A stretch of DNA of 41,104 nt from a virus (Duplodnaviria > Heunggongvirae > Uroviricota > Caudoviricetes), in IMG/VR virus record IMGVR_UViG_2617270992_000014; one strand, 5' to 3'. The position numbers and the translations under genes are program-made. Every line of letters starts with the position of its first letter. Position 1 is the stretch's first letter. Shown piece by piece: positions 11,539 through 13,144 of the stretch. The notes below the pieces were generated by a model. That model worked only from the letters and a program-made list of their open reading frames with translations. It was not told the DNA's origin and did no database searches.

Positions 11539-12162
11539 ATGACCACCTTTACCAAAGAACAGTTAATCTCCCATGCACGCGAAAGCGTTAGTTATCTGGA
11601 AAACGTGAAAGGACGCGTTAGCAAAGAAGGTGCGGACTGCAAAGTTGTTCTTGAGATGGTTGAACGAGATCTAGAACTGGCACGAATCGCACTGACATCG
11701 CTTGAAGCAGAGCCAGTTGCAGTAAACGACGACATGGCTTACGCATTCCATCACGCACTGTCAGATTCATCGCCAGGTGCTGATGAGGTAGAGGAAATTA
11801 AGGCCGGGTTGCGTGCAGCCTTTGCCAATGTCACCACCCAACCAGCACCAGTAGTGCCGGAATTTGAAACATGGTTTAACAGCCAGGAGTCAGGGAGGAG
11901 TATATGCAGCACACAGATTCGTCGTTCCCTTCAGGAAATTTCATGGAACGCCTGCTGCGCCGCCATGCTTCAGGGGAAAGGCGATGGTATCCTCACCAAT
12001 GAGGATACCAAAGGGGGCGTTCAGGTACGGGAATTAACAATGCTGATTAAACAACTGGTTAGCCAATTGAGGAAAGCGAAGCCGGACTGCAAATTACCGG
12101 AGAAGGCGATGGTCTACCTGAAGCGAAACGGACTGATAAACGCGGAGGATATTTTACGATGA
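11539..12162 (+). CDS. Hypothetical protein
   Basis: 207-aa ORF with AGGAG-type SD (TTAAGGAGTAACAAATG); no recognised domain. Confidence 0.5.
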   Translation: MTTFTKEQLISHARESVSYLENVKGRVSKEGADCKVVLEMVERDLELARIALTSLEAEPVAVNDDMAYAFHHALSDSSPGADEVEEIKAGLRAAFANVTTQPAPVVPEFETWFNSQESGRSICSTQIRRSLQEISWNACCAAMLQGKGDGILTNEDTKGGVQVRELTMLIKQLVSQLRKAKPDCKLPEKAMVYLKRNGLINAEDILR

Positions 12163-12242
12163 CCTGGCCTGAAGCATTCACCACGGTAGGAATCGCAATG
12201 GCGGTGGCGCTGATTGTGTATTCGATTTGCCGCTGGGGATAA
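12159..12242 (+). CDS. Candidate 27-aa hydrophobic membrane peptide
   Basis: Own translation MTWPEAFTTVGIAMAVALIVYSICRWG; GGAGGA 9 nt upstream; ATG overlaps the upstream TGA. Below the ORF-track cut-off. Confidence 0.3.
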   Translation: MTWPEAFTTVGIAMAVALIVYSICRWG

Positions 12243-12453
12243 AAACGGTTTGCGGGAAAAAGGGAGTTAAGTAAAATTGCTGCGGGTGCTTGAGGCTATC
12301 TGTCTCAGGCATGAACACCAAAAGGCAGATAGAGAAAAGCCCCAGTTAACATTACGCGTCCTGCAAGACGCTTAACATTAATCTGAGGCCCAATCTATGT
12401 CTCACAAATGTAGGTTAGCCTCTTACGCGCCGAAAGGCAAGGAGAAGCAGGCT

Positions 12454-12609
12454 ATGAAGCAGCAAAAGGCGATGTTAATCGTCCTGATCGTCATCTGTTT
12501 AACCGTCATAGCGACGGTACTGGTAACGAGGAAAGACCTCTGCGAGGTACGAATCCGAACCGGCCAGACGGAGGTCGCTGTCTTCACAGCTTACGAACCT
12601 GAGGAGTAA
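12454..12609 (+). CDS. hok: Hok/Gef-family type I toxin (small membrane peptide)
   Basis: MKQQKAMLIVLIVICLTVIATVLVTRKDLCEVRIRTGQTEVAVFTAYEPEE is near-identical in pattern to HokD/RelF-type toxins as recalled; AAGGAG upstream. The track ORF extends upstream to 12397 in the same frame. Confidence 0.8.
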   Translation: MKQQKAMLIVLIVICLTVIATVLVTRKDLCEVRIRTGQTEVAVFTAYEPEE

Positions 12610-12751
12610 GAGACCAGGCGAGGGAGAAACCCCTCGCCACCTCTGATGAGTCAGGCATCCTCAATGCACCCACACTTAACCCGCTTCGGCGTTTTTCCGT
12701 TGATTAACTCTAGTTATCAGAGAACCGAACTTTTACTGATGGGGCAGGGAG

Positions 12752-13144
12752 ATGAAGAAACTTGTTTTAGTTGCAGGTGTAATGATTGCAACAGTAATGT
12801 TGGGAGGGTGTGCAGCAAAGATCGATCCTGCGTTGAAAGCAGAAGCAATGAAACCACTAACATGTAAAGATGAAAAGCAATGTGACTTTTATTGGAAACG
12901 AGCGCAATTCTGGTTGGCTAATAATTCCTCATGGAAAATTCAAACGGCGACAGACACGCTAATTTCCACTTATAACCCTTCACCAAATAGCCCATTCCTC
13001 GCTTATCAAGTGAGTAAAATGCCAAATGAAGATGGATCCGCAAGAATTTTCATCAAGCCTTTTTGCGATAATATGTTTGGCTGTCAACCAAACCCCTATC
13101 AGGCAATAGTTTCCTTTAAAAACTTCGTTAAAACTGGGCAGTAA
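12752..13144 (+). CDS. AT-rich lipoprotein of unknown function
   Basis: 130-aa ORF with a signal peptide and lipobox (VMLGGC); coding region visibly AT-richer than its surroundings; followed by an intrinsic terminator. Confidence 0.65.
   Translation: MKKLVLVAGVMIATVMLGGCAAKIDPALKAEAMKPLTCKDEKQCDFYWKRAQFWLANNSSWKIQTATDTLISTYNPSPNSPFLAYQVSKMPNEDGSARIFIKPFCDNMFGCQPNPYQAIVSFKNFVKTGQ

What the first reader, a model, noticed from the sequence alone, without database searches (positions are those of the whole stretch)
12159..12640. Hok-family toxin gene with no obvious mok/sok architecture, preceded by a coupled 27-aa membrane peptide
The Hok-like peptide (12454-12609) is unmistakable, but I cannot identify a separate overlapping mok frame; the upstream open frame at 12397 is in the same frame as hok. 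A strong 8-bp stem-loop (GGCGAGGG ... CCCTCGCC, 12617-12638) follows the stop, consistent with a hok-mRNA 3' fold-back element. A strongly ribosome-bound 27-aa hydrophobic ORF (12159-12242) lies immediately upstream. Whether an antisense sok-like RNA exists, and whether the toxin is expressed from read-through of upstream genes, cannot be settled by eye.
Basis: partly seen in the sequence, partly recalled or inferred. Interest (0 to 1): 0.5.

Follow-up and report, generated by a model that had tools for sequence, protein, structure and literature searches.

The report
Ordinary prophage hok/mok/sok toxin–antitoxin locus
This is a complete, conventional hok/mok/sok type I toxin–antitoxin module of the hokW/hokD kind common in E. 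coli lambdoid prophages, and the 27-residue membrane peptide upstream is a real but separate small phage gene.

Summary
The reading "no obvious mok/sok architecture" does not hold.

- **Leader:** Rfam's hok/sok leader model matches 12284-12459 at 118.8 bits, against a threshold of 59.
- **mok:** The in-frame upstream ORF (12397-12609) is mok. It has the same layout as the annotated mokW/hokW of phage 933W and mokC/hokC of E. coli K-12.
- **Sok:** An antisense Sok gene maps to 12405-12335 on the minus strand. It has a conserved -35/-10 pair, a 5' tail that covers the mok start, and a hairpin plus U-tract terminator.
- **mRNA switch:** The 5' end (tac, 12284-12295) pairs with fbi (12659-12671). 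The mok Shine-Dalgarno sequence is sequestered by ucb.
[quoted passage not shown] It is 94-95% identical to "hokD" loci in about 20% of complete E. coli genomes.
- **27-aa ORF:** It shows purifying selection (pN/pS 0.28), but it also occurs without hok, and most hok loci lack it. It is the last, translationally coupled gene of the upstream operon.

Verdict: already known, low interest.

The parts
12144..12149 (+). Shine-Dalgarno GGAGGA of the 27-aa ORF
   Evidence: Read from the sequence. A Shine-Dalgarno sequence is kept in all four different upstream junction types.
12159..12242 (+). sORF27, a 27-aa single-pass membrane peptide (MTWPEAFTTVGIAMAVALIVYSICRWG). It is the last cistron of the upstream operon, its ATG overlaps the TGA of the 207-aa gene, and it is not part of hok/sok.
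   Evidence: Intact in 27 of 28 loci. pN/pS is 0.28 in frame, against 1.1 and 1.6 in the other frames, and variable columns by codon position are 8/9/18. It is present without hok in phages BP-4795 and Av-05.
12250..12277 (+). Putative hok promoter: -35 TTGCGG (12250-12255), 16-nt spacer, -10 TAAAAT (12272-12277)
   Evidence: Inferred from its position 7 nt upstream of the start of the Rfam match, and from conservation of GTA(G/A)AAT in relatives. The consensus promoter scan did not call it.
12284..12696 (+). Predicted full-length hok (mok-hok) mRNA
   Evidence: The 5' end is the start of the Rfam RF01794 match. The fold has z = -6.5 against shuffles. The 3' end is only approximate.
12284..12295 (+). 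tac element (5' GGGUGCUUGAGG)
   Evidence: It pairs with 12659-12671 in the minimum-free-energy fold. It pairs with 12302-12312 (the metastable hairpin) when the fbi is removed.
12339..12345 (+). ucb, the anti-Shine-Dalgarno box of mok (GCCCCAG)
   Evidence: It pairs with 12383-12389 (CUGAGGC, the mok Shine-Dalgarno region) in the full-length fold, and the R1-type control behaves the same way.
12335..12405 (-). Predicted Sok antisense RNA, about 71 nt: a 5' single-stranded tail, a long hairpin and GGGGCUUUU
   Evidence: Positional homologue of the sokW misc_RNA annotated in 933W. The fold is -32.7 kcal/mol, z = -4.8. It overlaps mok by 9 nt, as sokC does with mokC.
12385..12388 (+). mok Shine-Dalgarno GAGG
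   Evidence: Read from the sequence, 8 nt before the mok ATG. It is invariant in relatives.
12397..12609 (+). mok, 70 codons, in frame with hok
   Evidence: Same layout as annotated mokW and mokC. Intact and in frame in 59 of 64 unique relatives.
12392..12416 (+). Sok-target hairpin that encloses the mok start. Its loop is 12401-12407, and positions 12400-12405 are hypervariable.
   Evidence: Seen in the minimum-free-energy fold. Stem pairs carry 3-6 both-sides changes in the consensus fold. The entropy profile shows the variable patch.
12412..12440 (-). Putative sok promoter: -35 TTGCCT (12440-12435), 17-nt spacer, -10 TAACCT (12417-12412), start at 12405
   Evidence: Nearly invariant in 64 unique relatives. 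The start maps onto the annotated 5' end of sokW. Mutations in the sokW promoter abolish antitoxin activity in Sp5 (PMC8621323). The consensus promoter scan did not call it.
12418..12424 (+). dcb region (GCCUCUU)
   Evidence: Complementary to the mok Shine-Dalgarno sequence (duplex -9.9 kcal/mol). The Shine-Dalgarno/dcb stem is predicted in the 17-locus consensus fold.
12439..12444 (+). hok Shine-Dalgarno AAGGAG
   Evidence: Read from the sequence. It is invariant across relatives.
12454..12609 (+). hok, the 51-aa membrane toxin
   Evidence: Pfam PF01848 at 79.9 bits. 86% identical to HokW and 94% to K-12 HokD. The exact protein is on record as HokD in Escherichia.
12617..12638 (+). 3' stem-loop (8 bp), the hairpin expected to stabilise the 3'-processed (truncated) hok mRNA
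   Evidence: Seen in the fold. Compensatory changes support it. The role is inferred from R1, where this hairpin is needed for mRNA stability (PMC9841398).
12659..12671 (+). fbi, the fold-back inhibitory element (CCUCAAUGCACCC)
   Evidence: It pairs with tac. It is conserved at a fixed distance after the stop codon in most of 81 unique locus variants, with GGUGC/GCACC against GGCGC/GCGCC covariation.
12682..12696 (+). Weak terminator-like element: CGC-UUCG-GCG followed by U5
   Evidence: Most relatives and K-12 hokD have a 5-bp stem, CCCGC/GCGGG. The window has GCGTT instead.

Best explanation
The region 12250-12696 is a complete, probably functional hok/mok/sok type I toxin-antitoxin module of the hokW/hokD subtype. 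It sits in the nin-like part of the early-right operon of a lambdoid prophage.

The mechanism below is inferred from plasmid R1 and from hokW-sokW of prophage Sp5.

1. A stable hok mRNA starts near 12284. It folds back on itself through tac-fbi pairing, and the mok Shine-Dalgarno sequence is hidden by ucb, so the full-length mRNA is neither translated nor bound by Sok.
2. Slow 3' trimming removes the fbi and stops at the 12617-12638 hairpin. The mRNA then refolds, which exposes the mok translation start and the Sok-target hairpin.
3. While the short-lived Sok RNA (12405-12335, minus strand) is being made, it pairs across the mok start. This blocks mok translation, and with it the coupled hok translation, and the duplex is degraded.
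4. When Sok synthesis stops, through loss of the element or through prophage induction, mok and hok are translated. The 51-aa Hok inserts into the inner membrane and kills or lyses the cell.

The 27-aa ORF at 12159-12242 is a separate conserved small membrane-protein gene that ends the upstream operon.
For: **Shown here**
- Rfam RF01794 gives a full-length match at 118.8 bits, against a threshold of 59.
- Hok matches Pfam at 79.9 bits and PHROG 'MokW-like host killing' at 110.5 bits.
- The region from 12159 to about 12681 is 91% identical to the 933W locus annotated mokW, hokW and sokW, and all three features map cleanly onto the window.
- K-12 mokC/hokC/sokC has the same geometry: a shared stop codon, and Sok overlapping mok by 9 nt.
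- The full-length fold pairs tac with fbi and the mok Shine-Dalgarno sequence with ucb, with z = -6.5. The R1-type control folds the same way.
- tac/fbi pairing is conserved, with compensatory variants, across 81 unique locus variants.
- A 17-locus consensus fold has 21 pairs that keep pairing through changes on both sides.
- Among 64 unique close relatives, hok is intact in 64 and mok in 59, and the sok -35/-10 pair is almost invariant.
- The Sok candidate folds as a tail, a hairpin and a U-tract.
- The genes on either side are replication P, DUF1627 and DUF977 upstream, and DUF968, RusA and Q downstream, all on the same strand.

**From the literature**
- hokW is toxic, and sokW expressed from its own promoter neutralises it. 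sokW disappears and HokW appears after mitomycin C treatment in a RecA-dependent way. Deleting the locus halves phage release (PMC8621323).
- The R1 switch mechanism is described in PMC9841398.
Against: - There is no expression or toxicity data for this particular copy.
- Neither promoter passes a simple sigma-70 consensus scan. Both are inferred from conservation and homology.
- The open conformation of the truncated mRNA (tac paired with ucb) is not reproduced by minimum-free-energy folding. The R1-type control fails in the same way, so this test is uninformative.
- The terminator after the fbi is weaker than in most relatives, with a 3-bp stem instead of 5 bp.
- Hok differs from the tested HokW at 7 of 51 residues.
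Confidence: 0.93

Rival explanations
1. This is a non-canonical Hok gene that lacks mok/sok control. It would be expressed by read-through from the upstream operon and possibly act together with the 27-aa peptide.
For: No convincing terminator lies between the upstream operon and hok. The only terminator-like site is a weak 5-bp stem inside the 27-aa ORF, which is at chance level. Read-through from the early operon is therefore plausible after induction. The consensus scan found no promoter on either strand.
Against: The full Rfam leader match, the mok, sok, tac, ucb, dcb and fbi elements, and 91% identity to the experimentally validated hokW-sokW locus (PMC8621323) all argue against it. Read-through can add to the canonical control but does not replace it.
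Confidence: 0.02
2. This is an inactivated relic, like many chromosomal hok loci. K-12 hokD, for example, has lost its leader, mok start and sok.
For: Chromosomal hok copies are often decayed. K-12 hokD shares only the stretch from 12441 to about 12697 with this locus. The window's terminator stem is shortened. No functional data exist for this copy.
Against: Every element is intact here, and each is the majority form among relatives. Hok is intact in 64 of 64 relatives. mok is intact here, and the window's mok start and target-loop sequence is the commonest variant (26 of 64). Promoter boxes, tac and fbi are essentially invariant. The exact Hok and Mok proteins recur on many contigs.
Confidence: 0.04
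3. The 27-aa membrane peptide is a functional third component of the toxin-antitoxin module, for example a modulator of Hok at the membrane.
For: It lies 41 nt upstream of the hok mRNA start in the window and in 933W. Homology between the window and 933W begins exactly at its ATG. Like Hok, it is a small membrane peptide.
Against: - Only 28 of 144 hok loci carry it.
- The gap to hok varies: 41, 205, 293-294, 317 or 1437 nt.
- It occurs with no hok nearby in BP-4795, next to DUF4222, xis and int, and in the lytic phage Av-05.
- It is always coupled to the stop codon of the gene upstream of it, not to hok.
Confidence: 0.03

Closest known systems
hokW-mokW-sokW of Stx2 phages 933W and Sp5 (AF125520; PMC8621323)
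   Same: About 91% DNA identity from the 27-aa ORF through the fbi. mok is in frame and 70 codons long. The Sok position, promoter boxes, tac, ucb, fbi and 3' hairpin are the same. Hok is 86% identical. The sORF27 homologue lies 41 nt upstream in both.
   Different: - Genomic position: the locus is in the nin-like region between the replication genes and Q here. In 933W it is at the prophage end, beyond the long gene L0134.
- The mok codons 2-4, which are also the Sok 5' end, differ (MSHK against MLNT).
- The Hok C-terminus differs.
- The sequence after the fbi is unrelated.
'hokD' loci of E. coli lambdoid prophages as annotated by PGAP, and K-12 hokD (relF) in prophage Qin
   Same: 94-95% DNA identity over the whole 651 nt in 1064 complete E. 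coli genomes, in the same nin-region context. Hok is 94% identical to K-12 HokD.
   Different: K-12 hokD itself is truncated. Homology starts only at about 12441, and relBE replaces the leader, the mok start and sok. The window copy is the complete form.
hok/sok (parB) of plasmid R1, the paradigm (PMC9841398)
   Same: It has the same set of elements. The in-silico behaviour is also the same: tac/fbi closure, mok Shine-Dalgarno sequence paired with ucb, a metastable tac hairpin and a 3' hairpin.
   Different: Sequence similarity is much lower, with conservation confined to the regulatory boxes (alignment). By transfer, HokW shares 44% identity with R1 Hok. In R1, mok starts 58 nt before hok and is out of frame, whereas here the offset is 57 nt and mok is in frame. 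The host element is a plasmid rather than a prophage.
hokC/mokC/sokC (gef) of E. coli K-12
   Same: mok is in frame and shares the hok stop codon. Sok overlaps the first 9 nt of mok. The leader boxes are conserved.
   Different: It is a chromosomal locus next to IS186. It has a shorter Sok hairpin region, lacking the 18-nt insert seen in the window leader.

Membership tests
hok/sok type I toxin-antitoxin | Hok/Gef-family small membrane toxin ORF | tested here: met
   Pfam PF01848 at 79.9 bits, cut-off 22. PHROG 251 at 110.5 bits. The NCBIfam Hok subfamily model matches at 47.2 bits, which is below its cut-off of 73.
hok/sok type I toxin-antitoxin | mok reading frame that starts upstream of hok, overlaps it and has its own Shine-Dalgarno sequence | tested here: met
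   ORF 12397-12609 with GAGG 8 nt upstream. It matches annotated mokW and mokC and is conserved in 59 of 64 relatives.
hok/sok type I toxin-antitoxin | Structured hok mRNA leader (covariance model) | tested here: met
   Rfam RF01794 at 118.8 bits against a threshold of 59, covering model positions 1-157. The model matches the hok-sense strand.
hok/sok type I toxin-antitoxin | cis-encoded antisense Sok gene with its own promoter, a 5' tail across the mok translation start, and a terminator hairpin | tested here: met
   It maps onto annotated sokW. The -35 TTGCCT, 17-nt spacer and -10 TAACCT are conserved. The fold is a hairpin plus U-tract. All of this is at sequence level only. Expression was not tested, and the consensus promoter scan was negative.
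hok/sok type I toxin-antitoxin | Long-range tac-fbi pairing between the 5' and 3' ends of the mRNA | tested here: met
   12284-12295 pairs with 12659-12671 in the minimum-free-energy fold. The pairing is conserved with compensatory changes.
hok/sok type I toxin-antitoxin | mok Shine-Dalgarno sequence sequestered by ucb in the full-length mRNA | tested here: met
   12383-12389 pairs with 12339-12345. The R1-type control shows the same pairing.
hok/sok type I toxin-antitoxin | Refolding of the 3'-truncated mRNA to the open form (tac paired with ucb, Shine-Dalgarno sequence paired with dcb) | tested here: inconclusive
   The complementarities exist: tac/ucb at -10.7 kcal/mol and Shine-Dalgarno/dcb at -9.9 kcal/mol. 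The Shine-Dalgarno/dcb stem appears in the consensus fold. However, the minimum-free-energy fold of the truncated RNA gives the metastable hairpin instead, both in the window and in the R1-type control.
hok/sok type I toxin-antitoxin | Stable 3' stem-loop that ends the processed mRNA | tested here: met
   12617-12638 forms an 8-bp stem with compensatory changes. Its role is taken from R1.
hok/sok type I toxin-antitoxin | Hok is toxic and Sok neutralises it; the duplex is degraded by RNase III | not testable with these tools
   This has been shown for the 91%-identical hokW-sokW locus of Sp5 (PMC8621323), but not for this copy.
Any described protein family (for the 27-aa ORF) | A match to a Pfam, PHROG or NCBIfam profile | tested here: not met
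   No hit in Pfam, PHROGs or NCBIfam. The exact peptide is on record only as 'hypothetical' or 'bacteriophage protein'. No paper contains the peptide string.

The most novel reading that the evidence does not exclude
The 27-aa ORF (12159-12242) belongs to an undescribed family of phage small membrane proteins. The family is conserved at exactly 27 residues across temperate lambdoid phages and at least one lytic phage (Av-05). It is always translationally coupled to the stop codon of the preceding gene, and it is independent of hok. A second possibility is that the hypervariable loop at 12400-12405, which is also the Sok 5' end, acts as a specificity code that lets several hok/sok copies coexist in one genome without cross-talk.
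Probability: 0.55. Interest if true: 0.3.

Novelty: already known. Interest (0 to 1): 0.12.

Why it matters
For the scan, this removes a false lead. The locus is an ordinary, fully equipped hok/mok/sok module, already annotated in phage 933W and tested in Sakai prophage Sp5. It probably stabilises the prophage, helps lysis on induction, or both.

Two by-products have modest value. First, sORF27 carries a coding signature but is missing from Pfam, PHROGs and NCBIfam and from most phage annotations. Second, almost all variation in the hok locus is concentrated in the Sok-recognition loop, which is what selection against cross-talk between paralogous copies would produce.

Tried and rejected
- **Consensus promoter and terminator scan of 12000-12800.** It found no promoter on either strand and one chance-level terminator. 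It is not informative, because both hok-family promoters deviate from consensus.
- **Minimum-free-energy folding of the 3'-truncated mRNA to reproduce the open conformation.** It gave the metastable tac hairpin instead. I discounted this as evidence because the R1-type reference behaves the same way.
- **DUF551 fusion idea.** The 90%-identity cluster that holds the 27-aa peptide also lists 121-aa DUF551 proteins, which suggested a fusion. Their sequences do not contain the peptide. They are the gene immediately upstream in one junction type, so I rejected the fusion.
- **Pfam, PHROG and NCBIfam searches for the 27-aa ORF, the 207-aa upstream protein and the 130-aa lipoprotein.** They returned only unknown-function PHROGs. 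The Cor-like hit of the lipoprotein (E = 0.0096, no matched stretch passing the threshold on its own) is not credible.
- **Literature search for the peptide string.** It found nothing.
- **sORF27 as a third component of the toxin-antitoxin module.** I considered and rejected this on its distribution.

Full report
**Observation.**
- The 51-codon Hok ORF lies at 12454-12609.
- A longer ORF starts at 12397 in the same frame.
- An 8-bp stem-loop, GGCGAGGG/CCCTCGCC, lies at 12617-12638.
- A 27-codon hydrophobic ORF lies at 12159-12242. It has a GGAGGA Shine-Dalgarno sequence, and its ATG overlaps the TGA of the preceding 207-aa gene.
- Hok matches Pfam HOK_GEF at 79.9 bits and PHROG 251 'MokW-like host killing' at 110.5 bits.

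**Source and context.** The window is IMG/VR contig UViG_2617270973_000009, a lambdoid prophage. The genes around the locus, in order, are as follows.
- A cI-like repressor lies on the minus strand.
- The plus strand then carries a YdaT-like gene, a DnaT-domain replication gene, lambda P, DUF1627, DUF977 and several small genes.
- A 207-aa protein of PHROG 660 follows, then the 27-aa ORF and the hok locus.
- After hok come a lipoprotein of PHROG 16082, DUF968, RusA and antiterminator Q.

The locus therefore lies in the nin-like part of the early-right operon and has the same orientation as that operon.

**It is a canonical hok/mok/sok locus.** Rfam's only hit above threshold in the whole window is RF01794 ('sok') at 12284-12459. 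It scores 118.8 bits against a threshold of 59 and covers the full model. The match is on the hok-sense strand and ends at the hok AUG. The model therefore describes the hok mRNA leader, which contains the complement of Sok, rather than the antisense RNA itself.

The DNA from 12159 to about 12681 is 91% identical to phage 933W. That record annotates three features:
- mokW, 213 nt, sharing the hokW stop codon;
- hokW;
- a 71-nt sokW antisense RNA.

In the window these map onto mok at 12397-12609, hok at 12454-12609, and Sok at 12405 to 12335 on the minus strand. E. coli K-12 mokC/hokC/sokC has the same geometry: a shared stop codon, and Sok overlapping the first 9 nt of mok. In plasmid R1, mok starts 58 nt before hok and is out of frame (positions from PMC9841398). 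Here the offset is 57 nt. Among 64 unique close relatives, mok is intact and in frame in 59, and hok is intact in all 64.

**RNA elements.**
- *Fold-back.* The predicted full-length mRNA (12284-12706) folds with z = -6.5. Its 5' end (tac, 12284-12295) pairs with 12659-12671, which is the fbi.
- *mok translation start.* The mok Shine-Dalgarno region (12383-12389) is paired with GCCCCAG at 12339-12345, which is ucb.
- *Control.* An R1-type reference locus gives the same picture.
- *Truncated mRNA.* Removing the fbi makes tac fold into the local metastable hairpin in both the window and the control. The experimentally known open form is not reproduced in either, so that test is uninformative. The required tac/ucb and Shine-Dalgarno/dcb complementarities do exist.
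- *Conservation of tac/fbi.* The pairing sits at a fixed distance after the stop codon in most of 81 unique locus variants. GGUGC/GCACC alternates with GGCGC/GCGCC.
- *Consensus fold.* A consensus fold of 17 diverse loci (Escherichia, Photorhabdus, Pantoea, Erwinia, Kluyvera, Pseudocitrobacter, Kalamiella and the R1-type plasmid) has 21 pairs maintained through changes on both sides. These fall in the 5'-3' closure, the 5' hairpin, the hairpin around the mok start and the 3' hairpin.
It carries a compensatory A-T to G-C change relative to 933W. It corresponds to the last stem-loop of the processed R1 mRNA, which is needed for mRNA stability. It is not the fold-back element.

**Sok.** The minus-strand candidate has a single-stranded 5' tail that covers the mok start. 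A long hairpin and GGGGCUUUU follow. Upstream lie -35 TTGCCT, a 17-nt spacer and -10 TAACCT, nearly invariant among relatives. A simple consensus scan did not call this promoter or the hok promoter (TTGCGG, 16 nt, TAAAAT). Both are inferences from conservation and homology.

**Function.** Takada et al. 2021 (PMC8621323) studied hokW-sokW of prophage Sp5.
- HokW is toxic.
- sokW expressed from its own promoter neutralises it, and promoter mutations abolish that protection.
- sokW disappears and HokW accumulates in the inner membrane after mitomycin C treatment, in a RecA-dependent way.
- Deleting the locus halves phage release.

By homology I assign the same mechanism here, and I mark this as inferred. 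No convincing terminator separates the upstream operon from hok. After induction, antiterminated early transcription could therefore run through the locus and meet the convergent sok promoter. That would fit the reported loss of sokW, but it is speculation.

**Relation to 'hokD'.** Copies that are 94-95% identical over the whole 651 nt occur in 1064 of 5426 complete E. coli genomes, are annotated hokD, and sit in the same context. K-12 hokD itself shares only the stretch from 12441 to about 12697 with the window. Its leader, mok start and sok are replaced by relBE. The window copy is the intact form. The exact Hok and Mok proteins are already in public databases.

**The 27-aa ORF.**
- *It is a real gene.* It is intact in 27 of 28 loci that have it, behind at least four different upstream junctions that all keep a Shine-Dalgarno sequence and a stop/start overlap. 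pN/pS is 0.28 in frame, against 1.1 and 1.6 out of frame.
- *It is not part of hok/sok.* Only 28 of 144 hok loci have it. Its distance to hok varies from 41 to 1437 nt. It also occurs at exactly 27 residues, with no hok nearby, in BP-4795 (after a DUF551 gene, before DUF4222, xis and int) and in the lytic phage Av-05.
- *It is undescribed.* It matches no Pfam, PHROG or NCBIfam family and appears in no paper searched.
- *Its function is unknown.*

**Verdict.** The locus is already known, so interest is low.

Noticed in passing
window 12400-12405 (loop of hairpin 12392-12416): Almost all variation in an otherwise near-invariant locus sits in mok codons 2-3. That patch is also the loop of the Sok-target hairpin and the 5' end of Sok. 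Mean entropy is 0.70 bits across the Sok 5' tail (12392-12405), against 0.09-0.17 bits in the neighbouring elements. Co-resident hok copies in the same genome differ there, which suggests a specificity determinant that limits Sok cross-talk.
   Followed up: partly
window 12682-12696: The hok mRNA terminator is weakened. About 50 of 64 unique relatives, and K-12 hokD, have CCCGC-TTCG-GCGGG followed by a T-run. The window and four other unique sequences have GCGTT, which leaves a 3-bp stem. At least two of the loci that share the window's form (L001, L003) also carry the lipoprotein gene downstream, so read-through into that gene is possible.
   Followed up: partly
window 12752-13144: A 130-aa predicted lipoprotein (MKKLVLVAGVMIATVMLGGC...) of PHROG 16082, function unknown, lies directly after hok. 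It is present in only 4 of 144 hok loci and looks like a moron. Its weak Cor-like hit (E = 0.0096) has no matched stretch that passes the threshold on its own.
   Followed up: partly
L145:1501-1581 (BP-4795) and L146:1501-1581 (Av-05): The 27-aa ORF is conserved, unannotated and not next to hok in a temperate phage near xis/int, and in a 121-kb lytic Vequintavirinae phage. In BP-4795 it follows a DUF551 gene.
   Followed up: partly
L014, L023, L038, L131: In a few close relatives mok is out of frame with hok, as in R1, or is interrupted by a stop codon, while hok stays intact. The in-frame and out-of-frame layouts therefore interconvert easily.
   Followed up: no
L010, L013, L044; hit H17: Hok contigs that are 89% or more identical to the query are labelled as a Veillonella parvula MAG, Xanthomonas pisi (431 nt) and Acinetobacter idrijaensis (275 nt). 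An 'Actinobacillus phage vB_Apl-pPE4' is 95% identical to this E. coli lambdoid region. These are probably contamination or mislabelled hosts.
   Followed up: no
window 12284-12459: Rfam family RF01794 is named 'sok antitoxin', but it matches the hok-sense strand and ends at the hok start codon. A hit therefore marks the hok leader, not the antisense transcript.
   Followed up: yes
L003:2560-2670 (phage vB_EcoS-689R5): A 1-nt deletion just after the ATG of the 27-aa ORF shifts it into a 36-aa non-hydrophobic frame, which the record annotates as a CDS. This is either a sequencing error or a rare loss.
   Followed up: no
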